From positions 93,641 to 157,640 of the forward strand of contig JAKPEE010000069.1 of the NCBI GenBank assembly GCA_029552125.1: a stretch of DNA of 64,000 nt. Reading direction: 5' to 3'. Shown here in pieces: positions 5,335 to 29,020 of this stretch; the stretch's first letter is position 1; each line of letters opens with the position of its first letter. The translations under genes were made by a program, and so were the position numbers. The notes under the pieces were generated by a model. That model was not told where the DNA came from. It saw only the letters and a program-made list of their open reading frames with translations, and searched no databases. The stretch is from Bacillota bacterium (GTDB taxonomy: Bacteria; Bacillota; Dethiobacteria; DTU022).

Positions 5335-6218
5335 ACAGTAAGATTAATTTTATACAGCCGGAATATCTCCATTCCGGCCACTACGCCTGCCCCGGATGCG
5401 GGGCGGCCCTGGCGGTGCGCTACCTGGCCAGGGCCCTCGGCCCGGACCTGGTAGTGGTCATTACCGCTTCTTGCTGGAGCATCATTGCCGGAATGCCCCC
5501 CCTGTCGGCGTTAAAATGCCCGATTTTACACTGTCCTTTCCCCAGTGCCGGCGCTGTTGGCAGCGGGTTAAGGCGCGGGCTGGATTTGCGCGGCAAGCAC
5601 AGCACCACCGTGCTAGTCCTGGCCGGAGATGGGGGGACTTTTGATATCGGGCTGCAGGCCCTCTCCGGAGCGGCCCAGCGCAACGAAAATTTTATCTTTG
5701 TCTGCTACGATAATGAAGCTTATATGAATACGGGTATTCAAACCAGCTCCGCCACGCCTTTCGGCGCCCACACCACTACCGCCCCCTATCCCTTGTTTAA
5801 AAAGGGCGCTAAGAAAGATATTATGCACATCATGGCCGCTCACGGCATTCCTTACGCCGCCACGGCCACGGTGGCTTTTCCCGGCGACCTGGAGCAAAAA
5901 TTCAGGCGGGCCCGGCAAATTGAAGGTTTTCGCTTTATTCATATTTTGTCTCCATGCCCTCCGGGCTGGGGCGCCGATTCCGCCGATACGGTGGAGCTAT
6001 CCCGCCTGGCCGTGGAAACAGGGTTTTTCCCGCTCATGGAAATATTTGAAGGCGGGGCGCCGGTGCTGACATACCGCCCGGAAAAGAGAGTTCCCCTGGA
6101 GCAATACCTGAAGCTGCAGCGGCGCTTCCGGCCCCTGGAACTGCAGCAAATTGAGACCCTGCAACAGGGCGTTGATGAGGAATGGGAACGCTTATTAAAG
6201 GCGGCCGGACCTGTATAA
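5331..6218 (+). CDS. 2-oxoacid:ferredoxin oxidoreductase beta subunit (TPP-binding).
   Basis: CPGCG motif near the N-terminus and the TPP-binding GDG...N region. The GTG start overlaps the alpha stop. Confidence 0.85.
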   Translation: MNSKINFIQPEYLHSGHYACPGCGAALAVRYLARALGPDLVVVITASCWSIIAGMPPLSALKCPILHCPFPSAGAVGSGLRRGLDLRGKHSTTVLVLAGDGGTFDIGLQALSGAAQRNENFIFVCYDNEAYMNTGIQTSSATPFGAHTTTAPYPLFKKGAKKDIMHIMAAHGIPYAATATVAFPGDLEQKFRRARQIEGFRFIHILSPCPPGWGADSADTVELSRLAVETGFFPLMEIFEGGAPVLTYRPEKRVPLEQYLKLQRRFRPLELQQIETLQQGVDEEWERLLKAAGPV

Positions 6219-6244
6219 GCAATTGAAGTAAAGTTTTCCCCTCC

Positions 6245-6286
6245 TGGCCCGGTCCCGCCTGGTGCGGGCCGGGTCTTTTTAACTGA
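6245..6286 (+). terminator. Rho-independent terminator after the oxidoreductase operon.
   Basis: A GC-rich hairpin (CCCGGTCCCGCC...GGTGCGGGCCGGG) is followed by TCTTTTT. Confidence 0.55.
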
Positions 6287-6404
6287 GTACACCGGTATTA
6301 ACTAAAACCTCTGGAAATATTTTAGAATAATAATAAATTTTATAATTGAAACAGCAGGATTTTTTTAGCCGAAAGCAGAAGATACAAACCATAACAATGA
6401 GGAG

Positions 6405-7259
6405 GTGAGCGATTTGCGCGAGATTACAGCCGCTGAAATTGCGGGACATGTGGCCGAAATGTGTCAGGAAGCAAATCTTTATCTGGGCGAAGAGATGGAA
6501 CAGGCTTTAAAACGATCCCTGGAAGTTGAAGAATCACCCACGGGCAAAGAAGTACTGCAGCAGTTAATCGAAAATTTGGAAATTGCCCGCAAAGAGCAAA
6601 TACCTATCTGCCAGGATACGGGATTTGCCGTTTTTTTTGTGGAATGGGGCCAGGATGTTCATCTGACCGGAGGAACCCTGGAAGAAGCGATTAACGAAGG
6701 GGTCCGCCGGGGCTACCAGGAAGGCTATTTACGCAAATCCATCGTGGGCGACCCTCTTTATGACCGTAAAAACACCGGAGACAATACCCCCGCCGTGATT
6801 CATACCACCATTGTTGCCGGTGACAGGGTCAAAATTGCCTTTGCACCCAAGGGTGGAGGCAGTGAAAATATGAGCACGGTGAAAATGCTGAAGCCTGCCG
6901 ACGGGGAAAAAGGGGTCATCGATTTTGTGGTCAACCACATTAAAGCGGCCGGACCTAATCCCTGCCCGCCCATCGTTATCGGTGTGGGTATTGGCGGCAC
7001 CTTTGACAAAGTGGCGGTTCTGGCTAAGAAGGCTCTGCTGCGCCCGGTAGGACAGCCTCATCCGGATCCGGCCTACGCCGCCCTGGAGCAAAAAATACTT
7101 AAAGAAATCAATAAGCTGGGCATTGGACCCCAGGGTTTTGGCGGTCGCGTGACCGCTCTGGCGGTACACATCGAAACCTTCCCCTCCCATATCGCCAGCC
7201 TGGCGGCGGCAGTGAATATCAACTGCCATGCCTGCCGCCACCTGGAAAGAGAGATCTAA
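6405..7259 (+). CDS. fumA: Class I (Fe-S) fumarate hydratase, alpha (N-terminal catalytic) subunit.
   Basis: Matches the Fe-S hydro-lyase alpha-subunit family (CQDTGFAVFFVEWG, GIGGTFDK, NINCHACRHL). The start is uncertain: GTG at 6405, or TTG at 6414 with a better spacer to GGAGG. Confidence 0.85.
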   Translation: MSDLREITAAEIAGHVAEMCQEANLYLGEEMEQALKRSLEVEESPTGKEVLQQLIENLEIARKEQIPICQDTGFAVFFVEWGQDVHLTGGTLEEAINEGVRRGYQEGYLRKSIVGDPLYDRKNTGDNTPAVIHTTIVAGDRVKIAFAPKGGGSENMSTVKMLKPADGEKGVIDFVVNHIKAAGPNPCPPIVIGVGIGGTFDKVAVLAKKALLRPVGQPHPDPAYAALEQKILKEINKLGIGPQGFGGRVTALAVHIETFPSHIASLAAAVNINCHACRHLEREI

Positions 7260-13063: not shown

Positions 13064-13780
13064 TTACAGTTCCATGGCCGGGTTTTCGCGGTGTACAAAA
13101 CCGGTTTTGACCCGGCAGTGAAAGAGCTCTTCCAGGAGCGCGGCCAGCCTGTCCCGGGCCTCTAGGACTGCCGTTTCATTAATCCCGCGAAAGCCGTCGA
13201 TGGGGAAGAAAATGTTGCGGCACTGCGGGGTAATTTTGCCGTCTTCGCCCTGGCGCCAGATCCAGCGGCGGGTTTTAACCCGGTTCCCACTGGCATAGAC
13301 CAGTTCACCCGGATCGGGCGGCTCGTTTTCTCCGCCGCCAAAAGGAATGAAAATATCCCCGGGCTCGCTGAAGCGCAGCTCTATGTCCCCGGAAAAGCGA
13401 TCCATGTCGTGGGCCCCGATGGGCAGATGGTAAAGCAGCGAAAAGGCATTGGCCAGGTCCACGGCATTGTTAATCGAGGGCGGAGCGCCTCCCTTGGCCA
13501 CTCTTTGGGCCAGCGCCTCGATGGAGGAAGGATATTTATTGGGATTGTATCCCAGGGTGCGAAAGGCTTCGCGATAAGGGAGAATGGCCGGGTGCTCTTT
13601 AATCTTGCCGCTTTGGAAATCTTGCGCCGCCCGGGCCGTGGCTTCCTGCAAAATAGCCGCGATTTCCGGGCGGGAGGTGCGGTTATCCACCTCCCGGGCG
13701 GTAACCACGCCGAAACAGGCGTCTTTAAGGATGGCAAATACCTTTGCTTGCACAGTAAATCTCACTATTTTCAACCCCAT
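13064..13780 (-). CDS. B3/4 domain-containing protein (tRNA-binding-like domain).
   Basis: 238-aa ORF that resembles conserved B3/B4-domain proteins from memory. The start is uncertain. Confidence 0.55.
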   Translation of the reverse strand: MGLKIVRFTVQAKVFAILKDACFGVVTAREVDNRTSRPEIAAILQEATARAAQDFQSGKIKEHPAILPYREAFRTLGYNPNKYPSSIEALAQRVAKGGAPPSINNAVDLANAFSLLYHLPIGAHDMDRFSGDIELRFSEPGDIFIPFGGGENEPPDPGELVYASGNRVKTRRWIWRQGEDGKITPQCRNIFFPIDGFRGINETAVLEARDRLAALLEELFHCRVKTGFVHRENPAMEL

Positions 13781-14029
13781 TTCCTGCCGGGCCCGGCTGA
13801 TAACCGGGCGTAAACATTTAGAAACGACAAGGCCGGCTTAAAATTAATTCGCTGCTACTTCTGCATTACCTGCCTGGCTATGATCTCCCCTTGTTCATGC
13901 TCCGGCGCTCAGCGGCTTTGCTTCTTCCCAAACCCTGAATATGCTCCGGCCCTTTCCGATCACTATTTTTTACCTGCAGCGGGTAAACTAAGTTATAACA
14001 AGCATATTTTTTACGGATGAGGTGGTTAA

Positions 14030-14203
14030 ATGGCGCGCACTTTTGAAATTGGCGGGCTAAAGGTTACCCGCCACGTGGATAAAAGTGAAATTAATGCCTT
14101 TGTCGCCGGGCTTCCCCCGGAAAAGAGAGCGGATCTCAAAGAAATGCTGCTGGCGCTCCATGAAAAGGGGTTAATTACTATTGAAGAAAAGCTTTTACAT
14201 TAA
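14030..14203 (+). CDS. Small hypothetical protein of 57 aa, not in the supplied ORF track.
   Basis: RBS GAGGTGG plus a 6-nt spacer, then ATG at 14030. An uninterrupted frame (MARTFEIGGLKVTRHVDKSEINAFVAGLPPEKRADLKEMLLALHEKGLITIEEKLLH) runs to TAA at 14201-14203 in an otherwise empty intergenic region. Confidence 0.35.
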   Translation: MARTFEIGGLKVTRHVDKSEINAFVAGLPPEKRADLKEMLLALHEKGLITIEEKLLH

Positions 14204-14248
14204 GGGCAGCCATAAACAGATTCTGCTGCCGCCTGGAAAAATTAATAG

Positions 14249-14277
14249 TTTACCGGCGTACAGGTACGATCTATAAT
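14249..14277 (+). promoter_or_regulatory. Sigma-A-type promoter driving a probably leaderless nth mRNA.
   Basis: TTTACC-N17-TATAAT, with the ATG of nth 8 nt after the -10 element. No SD is present. Confidence 0.4.
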
Positions 14278-14284
14278 ATAAAAT

Positions 14285-14941
14285 ATGTTTAGCCGTAACC
14301 ATGAAGAGGCAGAAGCAAAACGAATCCACACTATTTTTACACTGCTTGAGCAGCTCTATCCCGGAGCGCAAACAGCCTTACACTTCGCGAACCCGTTTCA
14401 ACTTCTCGTAGCCACGGTGCTGTCCGCCCAGACTACGGATGAACAGGTGAACCGTATTACGGCGAAACTGTTCCCCCGGGCGGGTTCGCCGGAAAAGCTG
14501 GCCAGAATGGAGCGGGCGGAACTGGAGCGCTACCTGCAAGGCTGCGGGCTTTTCCGGCAAAAAAGCCGTTTTTTAATTGAAGCCAGCCGTATTATTGTCG
14601 AAAAACATGGAGGTAAAGTGCCCGATACCTTTGAAGCCCTGGTGGCGCTGCCCGGCGTGGGCCGGAAAACCGCCAATGTTATTTTAAGCAACGCTTTTAA
14701 CAAGCCCGCCCTGGCCGTGGACACCCATGTCTTTCGCGTCGCCCGTCGGCTGGGGCTGGCTGCCGGCAAGAAAGTGGAGCAGGTTGAAGAAGAGCTAAAG
14801 GCCTTACTGCCGCCGCATGAATGGGGCAGGGTTCACCACCGCCTTATTGCCCATGGCCGCCGTATCTGCAAAGCCTTACAACCGCAATGCGGCGACTGTC
14901 TACTGGGACCATGTTGTCCGTCCAGGCATATAAGATCATAG
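14285..14941 (+). CDS. nth: Endonuclease III (DNA glycosylase/AP lyase).
   Basis: HhH-GPD motif (LVALPGVGRKTANVIL) and the C-terminal Fe-S loop Cx6Cx2Cx5C (CKALQPQCGDCLLGPCC). Confidence 0.85.
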   Translation: MFSRNHEEAEAKRIHTIFTLLEQLYPGAQTALHFANPFQLLVATVLSAQTTDEQVNRITAKLFPRAGSPEKLARMERAELERYLQGCGLFRQKSRFLIEASRIIVEKHGGKVPDTFEALVALPGVGRKTANVILSNAFNKPALAVDTHVFRVARRLGLAAGKKVEQVEEELKALLPPHEWGRVHHRLIAHGRRICKALQPQCGDCLLGPCCPSRHIRS

Positions 14942-26399: not shown

Positions 26400-27215
26400 T
26401 CAATTCGGGGACGGTTCTTGACTTGAATTTAAAAATTAAATACGGAGTTAGAAAAAAGGATGTAAGAGTGCGTGGGGCAATAAAATCATGTTGTCGGAAG
26501 AGAATTAAAATTTTTAATTCTAATTTATGAATGAGGTGTAATGGATGATATTCGACGCGTTGAGGGAAAAAATAAAAAGTTGTCAGGAATGCAAACCCAA
26601 ACATTGTCATTGTCCTCCTTTATATTTCAAATGCAATAATCCAGATGAAGTAAAGGTAATCGTCATTAGTGAACAGCCAATGGAAACAGATAATATAATT
26701 ACCGAAGATTCTATAAAGGAGTGTTTACGAGGCGAACGCAGAGGAAGCCCGACAATAAATGATATCGCAGAACTATTTTCTGAAGAATACAAGAATAGTA
26801 TATTGAAGGACGGTGGTAAATTTTTTTGGACACACCACACAAAGTGCCCGTCCTCTAAAAGAAATAGCATACAAAAAAATTGCCCTCAGAAATGGCTAAC
26901 TAAAGAGATAACTATTTTCCCGAATCTTCAATATATTATAACTATTAGTAGTCCCGCGCACGAAGCAATCATGTCAATGGGAGGATGCAAACCTAATCTT
27001 ACAGATGCGCTTTGGAAAGAATTCGAATTAGTGATATTTAACGAACACTATGGCAAAGATATTGAGATTCCCACTATTAAAATTTGTGGTAAAGTATTCA
27101 ATTATATTTCATTACCGCATACAACGAACTGTAATCCGTTAAGTAATTTTATTCCGTACTTAAGCCCCCTTATCAGAAAGGTAGAGGAAGCTATTTGATA
27201 GTGGTATGAACTATA
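26400..27215. other. Short island that is AT-rich relative to the genome (putative horizontally acquired insert) carrying one ORF.
   Basis: Base composition drops abruptly to roughly one-third G+C by eye, against about 55-60% in the flanks. The left flank holds an 8/8 inverted repeat AATTAAAA-T-TTTTAATT. There is an orphan gene with no functional link to its neighbours. Confidence 0.5.
26545..27198 (+). CDS. Divergent Fe-S uracil-DNA-glycosylase-superfamily (family-4-like) protein.
   Basis: Collinear with the family-4 UDG layout:
- an N-terminal CxxC (SCQECKPKHC);
- a motif-A-like VIVISEQPMETD, where GEGPG would be expected;
- a Cys pair KCPSSKRNSIQKNCPQKWL, matching the family-4 pattern KCRPP...C..WL;
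- a motif-B-like SLPHTTNCNPLS, where HPSPL would be expected.
AT-rich codon usage. Confidence 0.55.
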   Translation: MIFDALREKIKSCQECKPKHCHCPPLYFKCNNPDEVKVIVISEQPMETDNIITEDSIKECLRGERRGSPTINDIAELFSEEYKNSILKDGGKFFWTHHTKCPSSKRNSIQKNCPQKWLTKEITIFPNLQYIITISSPAHEAIMSMGGCKPNLTDALWKEFELVIFNEHYGKDIEIPTIKICGKVFNYISLPHTTNCNPLSNFIPYLSPLIRKVEEAI

Positions 27216-27218
27216 AAA

Positions 27219-27659
27219 TTATCTCAAGATATCTGTCTGAGCAGCTTGAGCCAGCCTGCTCAGCCTCTCCCAGAGGTCCTGGCTGTGCTTCCGCAAAGCC
27301 ACCGGGCGCCCGGCGCGGTTTGTAAAAGCATGTTCCGTGCTGCCCCGGGCCAGGAGCTTCTCCCCGCGCCGCACTTCGTACTCAAAAATCACCCGGGTCT
27401 GCCGCAGCTCCTTGATCCTGGTAAACACGGCTACTTCATCGTCATAACGGGCCGCTGATTTATACTCGACTACTGCCCTAATCACCGGCAGGAAAAGCCC
27501 GTTTTGTTCAAATTCCAGGTACGGCAGGCCCAGCCGGCGCATATACTCTGCGCGCCCCGCCTCAAACCAGACCAGGTAGTTGGCATGGTAGACTACGCCC
27601 ATCTGATCGGTATCGGCATAGCGGACGCGGATTACGGTTTTTGACGCTTGATCGAACAC
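27219..27659 (-). CDS. Acyl-CoA thioesterase of the 4HBT/YbgC hot-dog fold family.
   Basis: VRYADTDQMGVVYHANYLVWFEAGR is the hot-dog thioesterase signature. The start is placed at the GTG preceded by AGGAGGA plus an 8-nt spacer. The track's longer N-terminus has no SD. Confidence 0.75.
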   Translation of the reverse strand: MFDQASKTVIRVRYADTDQMGVVYHANYLVWFEAGRAEYMRRLGLPYLEFEQNGLFLPVIRAVVEYKSAARYDDEVAVFTRIKELRQTRVIFEYEVRRGEKLLARGSTEHAFTNRAGRPVALRKHSQDLWERLSRLAQAAQTDILR

Positions 27660-27742
27660 GATCGGAGTCCTCCTAACCCTAAAAACGATCACTGGCCAAT
27701 AAAATATTTACCGCATCAGCCCCGTTATAATTTTCAGTAAAG

Positions 27743-29020
27743 TCACGGGCCGTCCCCGCTGGAATCCAAATCGTAGATTACCAGCCCGCTGGGCAGCTTG
27801 GGGTAGAAATAGGTTGATTTCTGAGGCATTTTTTCCCCCCGGGAAGCCCGGTCAGTCAACTCTTGTATGGGTGTGGCGTTAAGGAGAAAGGCGGCCTGCG
27901 CCTTTTGGCGGTAGATCATCTCCAAAACTTCGTACTCATCTTTGCTGTAACTGACGTGCTCTTCAAAAGCGGAAGGTTCCATATCGGTAAAAAGGGGTGC
28001 CAGCAGGCGGTTATTCAGAATGGAAACATCCAGGGTATCCTCAGCAAAATCTCCCTGAAGCAGCAGCGCCGCTTCCTCTGTGATCAGCCCAAAGGCCGGT
28101 GCAGCCGCCCCCCTGACCTTAATCTCTGCCAGAAATGATGGCAGGTCCGCGGCCCGCAGGGAGCCCCATTCCGTCACCTTAAACTTTTCGCGCGCTGCGC
28201 GCAGCAGCCCGGCTATTTGGGCCGGAGTCAATCCGCTTAAAACACGGTGCGTGGGCAGGATAACCAGGCCCGGATCGCGCAGGCTGACCAGGATTGAGAG
28301 GACGTAACCGCGTCCGGGGTGGCGTCTCAGATCGGACTCTCCAGCAAAGGCCACGGCGGTTTCATAGCGGTGGTGGCCGTCGGCGATGAAAACAGGCCGG
28401 GAAGCCATGAATTCAATCAGCCTGTTTTGCAGATCCAATTCATCCAGCGCCCAGAGGATGTGCCGCTCGGTTCCTTCGGGCATGGTTATATCACAAAGGG
28501 GAGCACCCTTCTTGACAGCGCCCATGATCTGGCCGGCTACATCGCCGGGATCTGAAAAAAGCCCGAAAATGGGACTGAAATTGGCGCGGCAGTGCCTAAG
28601 CAACTCAAGGCGGTCCGACTTTGCTTTCCGATGGGTCTCTTCATGGGGCAGTACAGTTTTGTGATCGTAGGGCTCCGCCTTTAAAGCGGCAACCAGCCCC
28701 GTGCGCCTATAGGTGTTTTCACGGTAGGTAAATGTTTGTTCATATATGTAGAATACTTTCTTCTCTTCCCGGCGCAGCACCCCCTCGTTCAACCACCTTT
28801 GCCAGGTGCCGGCGGCCCTGGTATAACGGTTGTTGGCCGCGGAATCGTTTCCGCCGCTGTATCCGTATTCCAGCCGGATGATATTGTAAGGGCTGCGGCG
28901 ATAATAAATGGCCTGTTCTTCGGGTTTAATCACATCATATGGTGGAGTAATCACGGCACCGAGATCGCCTGTCAAATATTCATTATAACGAATACCTCTG
29001 AACGGTAAAATTGTAGCCAA
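27743..29020 (-). CDS. DUF1015 family protein.
   Basis: Conserved DUF1015 blocks (ILPFRGIRYN, IADGHHRYETA). Start reassigned to TTG at 29020, preceded by GGAGGGAGG, giving MATILPFRGIRY. Confidence 0.75.
   Translation of the reverse strand: MATILPFRGIRYNEYLTGDLGAVITPPYDVIKPEEQAIYYRRSPYNIIRLEYGYSGGNDSAANNRYTRAAGTWQRWLNEGVLRREEKKVFYIYEQTFTYRENTYRRTGLVAALKAEPYDHKTVLPHEETHRKAKSDRLELLRHCRANFSPIFGLFSDPGDVAGQIMGAVKKGAPLCDITMPEGTERHILWALDELDLQNRLIEFMASRPVFIADGHHRYETAVAFAGESDLRRHPGRGYVLSILVSLRDPGLVILPTHRVLSGLTPAQIAGLLRAAREKFKVTEWGSLRAADLPSFLAEIKVRGAAAPAFGLITEEAALLLQGDFAEDTLDVSILNNRLLAPLFTDMEPSAFEEHVSYSKDEYEVLEMIYRQKAQAAFLLNATPIQELTDRASRGEKMPQKSTYFYPKLPSGLVIYDLDSSGDGP

What the first reader, a model, noticed from the sequence alone, without database searches (positions are those of the whole stretch)
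26400..27215. AT-rich single-gene island encoding a divergent Fe-S UDG-superfamily protein between pyk and a thioesterase
Base composition falls abruptly from the GC-rich host level to a clearly AT-rich stretch for about 0.8 kb, which points to recent horizontal acquisition. The island contains one 217-aa ORF (26545..27198) with no functional relation to the glycolysis genes upstream or the convergent thioesterase downstream.

Read against a family-4 uracil-DNA glycosylase such as Thermus UDGa, the protein is collinear in four places:
- an N-terminal CxxC (LREKIKSCQECKPKHC) where the first two [4Fe-4S] ligands sit;
- VIVISEQPMETD where motif A ([LM][IV][IV]GEGPGxxED) is expected;
- KCPSSKRNSIQKNCPQKWL matching KCRPPxNRxPxxxExxxCxxWL, the second Cys pair;
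- SLPHTTNCNPLS where motif B (HPSPL) lies.

The catalytic Glu and the motif-B His are retained, but the surrounding residues are strongly substituted: GEGPG becomes SEQPM and HPS becomes HTT. This looks like a new subfamily, possibly with a substrate other than uracil. Modified-base or damaged-base excision and a defence or anti-defence role are both conceivable.

The left flank carries a perfect 8/8 inverted repeat, AATTAAAA-T-TTTTAATT, at about 26497-26513. The same intergenic region has a TTGACT -35-like hexamer. Orphan UDG-fold genes delivered on AT-rich DNA into a housekeeping locus are not a described system as far as I know.
Basis: partly seen in the sequence, partly recalled or inferred. 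Interest (0 to 1): 0.7.

Follow-up and report, generated by a model that had tools for sequence, protein, structure and literature searches.

The report
Acquired divergent iron-sulfur UDG-like glycosylase gene
A single AT-rich gene inserted among housekeeping genes encodes a rare, uncharacterised branch of the iron-sulfur uracil-DNA-glycosylase family whose base-reading residues have changed, which makes it a reasonable but untested candidate for an anti-phage DNA glycosylase.

Summary
Positions 26400-27218 are the only stretch of the 64 kb with GC below 0.43 (minimum 0.34, about 5 SD below the mean). The single ORF (26545-27198, 217 aa) has GC3 of 0.33, against 0.61-0.71 in its neighbours. 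The gene is missing from the same locus in 15 related genomes.

The protein is a UDG-superfamily enzyme closest to the Fe-S clades:
- AF2 model: pLDDT 90.8.
- hhalign to family 4: 98.3% probability.

All four Fe-S cysteines, the motif-1 Glu and the motif-2 His are conserved family-wide. The uracil-reading Asn is replaced by His (64 of 65 sequences), the EG doublet by EQ (65 of 65), and the stacking-Phe motif is absent.

The family is rare (about 30 clusters among 1.84 billion representatives), has no fixed partner gene and is under purifying selection. The query's clade is AT-rich wherever it is found. It often sits beside restriction, Abi, TIR-like, transposase or phage genes.

The most likely role is a stand-alone glycosylase for a non-uracil base, probably antiviral; this is inferred, not shown. 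Single-gene UDG-fold defence glycosylases (Brig1-3) are already described. This family is unrelated in sequence to Brig1. I rate it a new variant of a known kind, of moderate interest.

The parts
26400..27218 (.). AT-rich island between the pyk stop (26399) and the thioesterase stop (27219).
   Evidence: GC is 0.34-0.36 against a window mean of 0.55, and this is the only region below 0.43 in 64 kb. Nothing corresponding lies between pyk and the thioesterase in relatives L010-L014, L016 and L017.
26545..27198 (+). Gene for a 217-aa divergent [4Fe-4S]-type UDG-superfamily glycosylase.
26533..26538 (+). Shine-Dalgarno-like GAGGTG, 6 nt upstream of the ATG.
   Evidence: Read from the sequence. DNA similarity to the homolog in L002 begins at 26526, so it includes this site but nothing further upstream.
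26581..26592 (+). Codons for C13-x-x-C16, the first pair of predicted Fe-S ligands.
   Evidence: Present in 64 of 65 family sequences, the 65th being gapped at these columns. They align with C13/C16 of Thermus UDGa.
26656..26691 (+). Motif 1, VIVISEQPMETD (E43-Q44).
   Evidence: E is found in 62 of 65 and Q in 65 of 65 family sequences. The motif aligns with IVGEGPGEEED of Thermus UDGa, E41-G42.
26824..26898 (+). Motif 3 with the second Cys pair: FWTHHTKC101PSSKRNSIQKNC113PQKWL. H97 replaces the uracil-reading Asn.
   Evidence: W95, T96, C101 and C113 are invariant, and H97 is found in 64 of 65. The segment aligns with YITN80IVKC84...C100TDKWL of 1ui0.
27112..27141 (+). Motif 2, LPH192TTNCNPL (family consensus LPHPSxxNPL).
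   Evidence: H192 is present in 63 of 63 sequences. P193 and S194 are replaced by T and T only in the query and P0002. H192 aligns with H155 of Thermus UDGa.
26501..26521 (.). Perfect 10+10 palindrome, 24-44 bp upstream of the start codon. It is a candidate operator; its function is unknown.
   Evidence: I22. Reached by 1 of 2000 shuffles. Found only in contigs of this same organism. No RNA-fold signal, z = 0.01.
26406..26433 (.). Left arm of an imperfect inverted repeat that brackets the UDG-like gene plus the thioesterase.
   Evidence: (I1): 21 of 28 bases complementary, with a 9/9 core CGGGGACGG. The score is reached by 3 of 3000 random window pairs and 8 of 2000 shuffles.
27731..27758 (.). 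Right arm of the same inverted repeat. It overlaps the last codons and the stop of DUF1015.
27219..27692 (-). 4HBT thioesterase. It is of host composition but inverted relative to related genomes, and it is part of the rearranged segment.
   Evidence: GC 0.576. Pfam 4HBT. In seven relatives the ortholog follows pyk on the same strand.

Best explanation
The ORF encodes a functional, monofunctional DNA glycosylase of the UDG superfamily. It belongs to a small uncharacterised clade nearest to the iron-sulfur families (4, 5 and UdgX).

Shown:
- The fold.
- Four invariant Cys at the positions of the family-4 [4Fe-4S] ligands.
- Conservation of the motif-1 Glu and of the motif-2 His, which in family 4 stabilises the leaving base.
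- Purifying selection.
- Foreign base composition, and absence from the same locus in relatives.

Inferred:
- The enzyme flips a base out of DNA and cleaves the glycosidic bond as family 4 does.
- It reads a base other than uracil. The Asn that hydrogen-bonds uracil N3/O4 is an invariant His, the EG doublet is EQ, and the stacking-Phe motif is replaced by a helical insert.
- Its biological role is most likely that of a stand-alone, horizontally spread antiviral glycosylase that makes abasic sites in phage DNA carrying a modified base, as Brig1-3 do. The basis is that the query's clade is AT-rich wherever it occurs and often lies beside restriction, Abi, TIR-like, transposase or phage genes.

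The gene arrived as little more than a ribosome-binding site plus ORF, with no mobility gene. The local segment (gene plus thioesterase) appears to have been inverted between two short inverted repeats.
For: Fold and family:
- AF2 model with pLDDT 90.8 and pTM 0.90.
- In Foldseek against the PDB, family 4 ranks first, with 1ui1 at 7e-7 and 4zby at TM 0.65.
- The family profile hits 1ui0 at 5.7e-6 and 4zbx at 5e-5.
- 19 of 27 members reach Pfam UDG, and P0003 scores 31.2 bits against a cut-off of 24.3.
- hhalign to family 4 gives 98.3% probability over the full length.

Residues:
- Invariant positions are C13, C16, E43, Q44, W95, T96, C101, C113, E121 and H192.
- The roles of E41, G42, F54, N80, N89 and H155 in Thermus UDGa come from PMC5387724.

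Selection and integrity:
- dN/dS is 0.14.
- The gene is identical and intact in six independent assemblies.

Horizontal origin:
- Composition, and absence from the syntenic locus in L008-L022.
- Homologs have lower GC than their flanks in 16 of 38 loci by more than 0.05, and none is higher by that margin. The query's clade shows about -0.13.

Contexts of homologs:
- Type I HsdR 13 bp upstream (L091, 1162 bits) and a type IIG restriction-methylase (L128).
- HamB-like and BrxH/SngC-like helicases.
- HEPN_AbiU2, a weak hit.
- ISL3 transposase with a PD-(D/E)XK protein.
- DUF4062, and a WYL/WCX regulator.
- A phage tail module.

Precedent: Brig1, Brig2 and Brig3.
Against: - No activity, substrate or phenotype is known for any member of this family.
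- In the window itself the neighbours are housekeeping genes (dnaE, pfk, pyk, thioesterase, DUF1015), with no defence or mobility gene nearby.
- About half of the homolog contexts are also ordinary, and I could not compute a background rate for defence neighbours.
- The second clade of the family has near-native GC and occurs partly in archaeal contexts (TBP, thermosome). That would fit a resident repair enzyme.
- The query departs from near-invariant family residues at Y94F, G135S and P193T/S194T, which could lower activity.
- No PADLOC model matches the protein.
- The Fe-S cluster is inferred from the cysteine pattern only.
Confidence: 0.5

Rival explanations
1. It is an ordinary repair enzyme: a divergent family-4-type glycosylase that removes uracil or another deaminated or oxidised base from the host's own DNA, acquired horizontally as a back-up base-excision-repair function.
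For: - The closest solved structures are repair UDGs.
- The Fe-S ligands, the motif-1 Glu and the catalytic His are kept.
- Clade 2 of the family has near-native GC and housekeeping or archaeal neighbours.
- The window context is housekeeping.
- UdgX, which has the same EQ doublet, still acts on uracil (PMC10776899).
Against: - The uracil-specific Asn (N80 in Thermus; N80A lowers k2/Km by more than 40-fold, PMC5387724) is His in 64 of 65 members, and the stacking-Phe motif is missing.
- The family is extremely rare and patchy, with about 30 clusters among 1.84 billion representatives. It is absent from the same locus in relatives.
- The query's clade is strongly AT-rich relative to its hosts and is often next to restriction, Abi or mobile-element genes.
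Confidence: 0.25
2. It is a phage-derived gene, either a moron or a remnant. Its natural role would be in phage biology: superinfection exclusion by a prophage, or processing of DNA during infection. The copy in this chromosome would be a stranded fragment of a lost element.
For: - Homolog P0003 (48% identical) sits inside a siphovirus-type tail module, between the major tail protein and the tape-measure protein, and is itself AT-rich relative to that phage by -0.13.
- BFVD matches are phage COG1573 UDGs and UDG domains fused to phage DNA polymerases.
- Another homolog lies among small ORFs with an XRE-type regulator.
Against: - No relative was found in 2.9 million viral contigs or in 50,697 sequenced phages, and no PHROG family matches.
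- No other phage gene, integrase or att-like repeat accompanies the island. The flanking direct repeat is not significant, at 145 of 2000.
- A prophage moron that excludes other phages is in effect the defence explanation.
Confidence: 0.15
3. It does not act as a turnover glycosylase. It would be a DNA-binding or covalently cross-linking protein like UdgX, or an inactive decaying gene.
For: - It shares the EQ doublet of UdgX (E52-Q53) and has two adjacent His residues (H97, H98) in motif 3.
- The query has four departures from near-invariant family residues.
Against: - The UdgX signature is an extended motif-3 loop carrying KRRIH (H109). Here the segment between the motif-3 Cys and the next Cys is shorter than in Thermus UDGa, not longer.
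- dN/dS is 0.14, and the ORF is intact and identical in six assemblies.
Confidence: 0.07

Closest known systems
Family 4 uracil-DNA glycosylase (UDGa; Thermus thermophilus 1UI0, Thermotoga maritima 1L9G, Sulfolobus tokodaii 4ZBX)
   Same: It has the same alpha/beta fold and is collinear over the whole length. The four Cys sit at the [4Fe-4S] ligand positions. The motif-1 Glu, the Lys before the third Cys, the C-x-x-W-L element and the motif-2 catalytic His are all present.
   Different: - Motif 1 is [ST]-E-Q-P-x instead of G-E-[GA]-P-G.
- The uracil-reading Asn80 is His.
- The G-R-P-F-V-G stacking motif is replaced by a helical insert of about 35 residues.
- No Asn corresponds to N89.
- The loop between the third and fourth Cys is 4 residues shorter.
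- The query reaches no NCBIfam family-4 model, and other members give only weak hits (best 1e-7).
UdgX (Mycobacterium smegmatis, 6AIL), a family-4-like Fe-S protein that cross-links to DNA
   Different: There is no extended motif-3 loop with the cross-linking His109. The Asn (N91) and the stacking Phe (F65) of UdgX are not conserved here.
Family 5 UDGb (Thermus thermophilus 2D3Y)
   Different: Sequence identity is only 13%, and Foldseek ranks it below family 4 and UdgX. From my own knowledge, family 5 lacks an acidic residue in motif 1 (GLAPA), whereas this family has an invariant E-Q.
Brig1, Brig2 and Brig3: single-gene UDG-superfamily anti-phage glycosylases
   Same: All are UDG-fold proteins that work as stand-alone genes, are spread horizontally, and are found in defence islands or near mobile elements. 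Brig2 homologues are reported to lie in A/T-rich regions. That is the same genomic behaviour as the query's clade.

Membership tests
UDG superfamily (Pfam PF03167 / UDG fold) | Four-stranded parallel beta-sheet alpha/beta fold shared by all UDG families. | tested here: met
UDG superfamily (Pfam PF03167 / UDG fold) | A score above Pfam's gathering threshold for PF03167. | tested here: inconclusive
   The query itself gives no hit. 19 of 27 family members hit at E<=0.01, and P0003 scores 31.2 bits against a cut-off of 24.3. The family profile against family 4 gives hhalign 98.3%.
Family 4 UDGa | Four Cys that ligate a [4Fe-4S] cluster (C-x2-C at the N-terminus, K-C, and C-x2-W-L). | tested here: met
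   C13, C16, C101 and C113 are invariant and align with C13, C16, C84 and C100 of 1ui0. Presence of the cluster itself cannot be tested here.
Family 4 UDGa | Motif 1 G-E-[GA]-P-G with the correlated E-G/A doublet. | tested here: not met
   The query has S-E-Q-P-M and the family has [ST]-E-Q-P-x, with Q44 in 65 of 65 sequences. The significance of the doublet comes from PMC5387724.
Family 4 UDGa | The Asn of the T-N motif (N80) that hydrogen-bonds uracil N3/O4. | tested here: not met
   His is at this position in 64 of 65 sequences and Arg in 1.
Family 4 UDGa | An aromatic residue stacking on uracil, within the G-R-P-F-V-G motif (F54). | tested here: not met
   The motif is absent and the region is a non-homologous helical insert. 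Conserved aromatics at positions 82 and 93 might substitute, but I could not inspect model coordinates.
Family 4 UDGa | The motif-2 His (H155) in H-P-[SA]. | tested here: met
   H192 is present in 63 of 63 sequences. The family consensus is HPS, while the query has HTT.
Family 4 UDGa | A match to the curated NCBIfam models TIGR00758 / NF040953. | tested here: not met
   The query gives no hit at E<=10. 10-11 of 27 members give weak hits, the best at 1e-7.
Family 4 UDGa | Uracil-specific excision from single- and double-stranded DNA. | not testable with these tools
   This needs a biochemical assay.
UdgX | An extended motif-3 loop (KRRIH) with His109 that cross-links to the abasic site. | tested here: not met
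   UdgX has a 9-residue insertion after V-K relative to Thermus UDGa. This family has a 4-residue deletion in that segment.
UdgX | The E-Q doublet in motif 1. | tested here: met
   E43-Q44 here correspond to E52-Q53 in UdgX.
Brig1 family of defence glycosylases | Sequence homology to Brig1. | tested here: not met
   hhalign of the family profile against Brig1 gives 0.3% probability. The Brig1 sequence came from supplement 1 of PMC11078745 and was machine-read from a PDF, so small errors are possible.
Brig2 / Brig3 defence glycosylases | Sequence or structural homology to Brig2 or Brig3. | not testable with these tools
   The sequences are not held in the papers' text or supplements. No Brig structure is in the PDB copies searched.
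Anti-phage defence gene (general) | Recurrent placement next to known defence genes or on mobile elements. | tested here: inconclusive
   Defence or mobile-element neighbours are seen in L091, L128/L131, L099, L124, L136, L138-140, L096, L093, L141 and L001. Other loci, and the window itself, are housekeeping. No background rate was computed, and no PADLOC model matches the protein.
Anti-phage defence gene (general) | Protection of cells against phage infection. | not testable with these tools
   This needs a plaque assay.
Horizontally acquired genomic island | Atypical composition together with absence from the syntenic site in relatives. | tested here: met
Horizontally acquired genomic island | A mobility signature: an integrase or transposase, a tRNA target, or flanking direct repeats. 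| tested here: not met
   The neighbouring ORFs include no integrase or transposase. There is no tRNA in the 64 kb. The flanking direct repeat is not significant, at 145 of 2000.

The most novel reading that the evidence does not exclude
The [ST]EQP / YWTH..KC clade would be a fourth, independent lineage of stand-alone antiviral DNA glycosylases, and the first to keep a [4Fe-4S] cluster. Its invariant His, in place of the uracil-reading Asn, would select a modified phage base that Brig1-3 and the Dag enzymes do not cover, for example a hypermodified pyrimidine or a modified purine.
Probability: 0.3. Interest if true: 0.65.

Novelty: new variant of a known kind. Interest (0 to 1): 0.45.

Why it matters
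If the inference holds, this is an undescribed branch of the iron-sulfur UDGs with a rebuilt base-recognition pocket. It could supply a glycosylase with a new specificity, useful for mapping or editing modified bases. It would also extend the recently discovered principle that bacteria turn repair glycosylases against phages with modified DNA to the Fe-S clade and to anaerobic digester communities. The invariant Asn-to-His and EG-to-EQ changes give a direct, testable handle on how specificity evolves within one fold. If the enzyme turns out to remove only uracil, the finding reduces to a rare, horizontally moving variant of family 4.

Tried and rejected
- Direct searches with the query alone found nothing informative: Pfam, NCBIfam, PADLOC and PDB sequence search. 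The assignment needed homologs.
- A scan of viral contigs with the family profile, tblastn against sequenced phages and plasmids and PHROGs were all negative. I therefore rejected 'typical phage or plasmid gene'.
- The flanking 15-nt direct repeat (26424 / 27207) is not better than chance, at 145 of 2000. I rejected it as a target-site duplication.
- The TTGACT hexamer has no -10 partner, and no sigma-70-like promoter or intrinsic terminator was found between pyk and the gene. A dedicated promoter is not established, and read-through from pyk is possible.
- The upstream leader shows no RNA structure signal, z = 0.01, and there is no Rfam family or tRNA in the whole window.
- No empty site was found. 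All six other assemblies of this organism carry the island.
- P0021 (2296 aa, nine matched stretches) is a repetitive adhesin-like protein and a spurious hit. The N-terminal extension of P0036 is a mis-called start, not a fused domain.
- The AFDB fold library was not available.
- Brig2 and Brig3 sequences could not be obtained.
Full report
OBSERVATION. GC drops from 0.55-0.62 to 0.34-0.36 across about 26400-27215. In 650-bp windows this is the only part of the 64 kb below 0.43: the minimum is 0.340, against a mean of 0.552 and SD of 0.041, which is about 5 SD. GC3 of the gene is 0.326, against 0.61-0.71 in dnaE, pfk, pyk, the thioesterase, DUF1015 and DUF2229.

WHAT THE PROTEIN IS. On its own the query matches nothing in Pfam, NCBIfam, PADLOC or the PDB sequences. 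An exhaustive phmmer search of 1.84 billion cluster representatives found 33 proteins at E<=1e-3, of which 16 are at E<=1e-10. The word-indexed search of 5.8 billion proteins found only three. One hit, P0021, is a spurious repetitive protein. This is therefore a rare family.

An alignment of 27 full-length members (A1) has ten invariant positions: C13, C16, E43, Q44, W95, T96, C101, C113, E121 and H192. The evidence for the family assignment is as follows:
- 19 of the 27 members reach Pfam UDG (PF03167) individually. P0003 passes the gathering score, 31.2 bits against 24.3.
- The profile hits the family-4 structures 1ui0 (5.7e-6) and 4zbx (5.1e-5).
- AlphaFold2 with this alignment gives a confident model, pLDDT 90.8 and pTM 0.90.
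- Foldseek ranks family 4 first.
- A profile-profile alignment to four family-4/UdgX sequences gives 98.3% probability and is collinear from residue 1 to 217. I took those sequences from PDB search output, so they are verified.

ACTIVE SITE. According to PMC5387724, the uracil pocket of Thermus UDGa is formed by E41, G42, E47, F54, N80 and H155. [quoted passage not shown] H155 stabilises the leaving base; H155S lowers k2 by more than three orders of magnitude. N89 positions the water. The E41-G42 doublet is a correlated hallmark of the family.

Mapping through, with counts over 65 non-redundant family sequences, gives the following.

| Thermus UDGa | This family | Conservation |
|---|---|---|
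| C13, C16 | C13, C16 | 64 of 65, the 65th gapped |
| C84, C100 | C101, C113 | 65 of 65 |
| E41 | E43 | 62 of 65 |
| G42 | Q44 | 65 of 65 |
| N80 | H97 | 64 of 65 |
| K83 | K100 | 63 of 65 |
| R90 | R106 | 51 of 65 |
| N89 | variable position | no Asn |
| H155 | H192 | 63 of 63 |

The G-R-P-F-V-G segment that carries F54 has no counterpart. It is replaced by a mostly helical segment of about 35 residues, with conserved aromatics at positions 82 and 93. In short, the catalytic scaffold is kept, while every residue that reads uracil has been changed in a way that is fixed across the family. This is the basis for inferring an active enzyme with a non-uracil substrate.

The query's 'HTT' is a derived state. 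59-60 of 63 sequences have HPS, and only the query and P0002 have HTT. The query also carries Y94F and G135S. The extra cysteines C21 and C23 are not conserved.

SELECTION. Against the 67%-identical homolog P0002, dN/dS is 0.14. The gene is intact and at least 99.8% identical in six assemblies from other samples, which include biogas-fermenter metagenomes.

LOCUS HISTORY. The nearest species-level genomes are uncultured Syntrophomonadaceae/Bacillota MAGs, with pyk 64-68% identical. None of 15 related loci encodes a relative of the protein near pyk.

In seven of them the 4HBT thioesterase follows pyk directly on the same strand. L010 shows pyk(+) thioesterase(+) DUF1015(-) DUF2229(+). The window shows pyk(+) UDG-like(+) thioesterase(-) DUF1015(-). 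The thioesterase has host composition, so it is the ortholog, but it is inverted.

An imperfect inverted repeat (26406-26433 and 27731-27758) brackets exactly the segment holding the new gene and the thioesterase. It has 21 of 28 complementary bases and a 9/9 core. Its score is reached by 3 of 3000 random window pairs and 8 of 2000 shuffles. This fits an inversion between short inverted repeats after, or together with, the insertion, but it is not proof.

DNA similarity to the homolog in L002 covers only 26526-27201, which is the ribosome-binding site plus the ORF. There is no integrase, tRNA or significant flanking direct repeat. The way the gene entered is unknown.

REGULATORY FEATURES. A GAGGTG ribosome-binding site lies 6 nt before the ATG. 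The palindrome at 26501-26521 has perfect 10+10 arms. It is unlikely by chance (1 of 2000), unique to this organism, and not an RNA structure. I regard it as a candidate operator with no assigned function. TTGACT at 26418-26423 has no -10 partner. No promoter-like or terminator-like site was found between pyk and the gene, so read-through from pyk is possible.

FAMILY BEHAVIOUR ELSEWHERE. A pattern scan of metagenome contigs returned 48 loci, nearly all of which carry the hallmarks [ST]EQ, YWTH..KC and HPS. Homologs have lower GC than their flanks. The median difference is -0.04, with 16 of 38 below -0.05 and none above +0.05.

Two clades are visible:
- The query's clade (YWTHHTKC) has a large deficit, typically -0.13 to -0.18.
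- The YWTH[FY]IKC clade is close to its hosts, at about -0.03. Some of its contigs carry archaeal genes such as TBP and a thermosome subunit.

There is no conserved partner gene. Immediate neighbours include:
- a full-length type I HsdR (L091),
- a type IIG restriction-methylase (L128/L131),
- HamB-like and BrxH/SngC-like helicases (L099, L124),
- HEPN_AbiU2, a weak hit (L136),
- an ISL3 transposase with a PD-(D/E)XK protein (L138-140),
- DUF4062 (L096),
- a WYL/WCX regulator two genes away (L093),
- an XRE regulator and a weak SIR2 match (L141),
- a phage tail module, in which the homolog is an AT-rich moron (L001).

Other loci, like the window itself, hold ordinary metabolic genes. I could not compute a background rate, so the association with defence is suggestive only. 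No relative was found in viral contigs, sequenced phages, plasmids or PHROGs.

COMPARISON WITH WHAT IS KNOWN. The protein works like, and descends from, the Fe-S UDGs. It fails the defining sequence features of family 4: the G-E-G/A-P-G motif, N80, the F54 motif and the curated models. It also lacks the extended cross-linking loop of UdgX, although it shares UdgX's E-Q doublet.

- Brig1 is a UDG-fold, single-gene defence protein that excises alpha-glucosyl-hmC (PMC11078745).
- Brig2 targets thymidine hypermodifications, and its homologues lie near mobile elements and in A/T-rich regions (bioRxiv 10.1101/2025.10.29.685425).
- Brig3 excises 5hmC (PMC13160076).

MECHANISM AND RIVALS. The best-supported reading (confidence about 0.5) is a stand-alone, horizontally spread Fe-S glycosylase that excises a non-uracil base, probably from phage DNA, and leaves abasic sites. 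The fold, the conserved residues, purifying selection and foreign origin are shown. Activity, substrate and the antiviral role are inferred.

The rivals are a divergent repair UDG (0.25), a phage-derived moron or remnant (0.15), and a non-turnover or decaying protein (0.07).

VERDICT. It is a new variant of a known kind: an uncharacterised Fe-S UDG clade that behaves genomically like the Brig-type defence glycosylases. Interest is moderate (0.45). It is a well-defined candidate with clear experiments to run, but the concept is no longer new and no function has been demonstrated.

Noticed in passing
window 26400-27760; compare L010:2131-2632 and L011:6746-7165: The 4HBT thioesterase is inverted relative to seven related genomes, where it follows pyk on the same strand. 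An imperfect inverted repeat (26406-26433 / 27731-27758) brackets the inverted segment. Its right arm is the 3' end of DUF1015 ('GDGP*'), and its left arm reads 'GDGS*' just after the pyk stop.
   Followed up: partly
L008:3923-4975, L009:3959-5026, L011:7173-8258, L012:5508-6593, L013:7207-8259, L014:1991-3043, L015:7249-8313, L017:7632-8684: Most related genomes carry a gene of about 350 aa ('IVYHPDYLLHT...', which I recognise by eye as histone-deacetylase/AcuC-like) between the thioesterase or pyk and DUF1015. It is missing in the window and in L010. The pyk-DUF1015 interval is therefore variable in this lineage.
   Followed up: no
window 26429, 26505, 26828 (ends of contigs L006, L007, L142, L143): Short contigs from four independent assemblies of the same organism break inside the island, and two of them (L142, L143) end at exactly the same base, 26828, just after a T7 run. 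This could reflect low coverage of AT-rich DNA or strain heterogeneity at the island.
   Followed up: no
L001:536-1829: In a phage contig, the 48%-identical homolog and an unannotated 204-aa ORF sit together between the major tail protein and the presumed tail chaperones and tape-measure gene. The homolog's GC is 0.13 below that of the phage. The arrangement looks like a two-gene moron.
   Followed up: partly
L102-L134 (the YWTH[FY]IKC clade): A second clade of the family has nearly host-like GC. Neighbouring genes on some of these contigs include archaeal TBP and a thermosome subunit. The family therefore spans bacteria and archaea and may be resident in some lineages.
   Followed up: partly
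L002:502-1674: The closest homolog (67% identical) lies 50 bp downstream of a 390-aa DUF4238 protein with a SEC-C motif. That protein has no known function and gives only weak PADLOC 'E2' hits.
   Followed up: partly
window 1-64000: No tRNA gene and no Rfam family reach threshold anywhere in the 64 kb. Milder GC dips occur near 13700-14450 (0.45) and 6150-6950 (0.47).
   Followed up: no
window 27198-27219: The stop codons of the UDG-like gene and the convergent thioesterase are only 20 bp apart, and no terminator-like hairpin was detected. Convergent transcripts would overlap.
   Followed up: no
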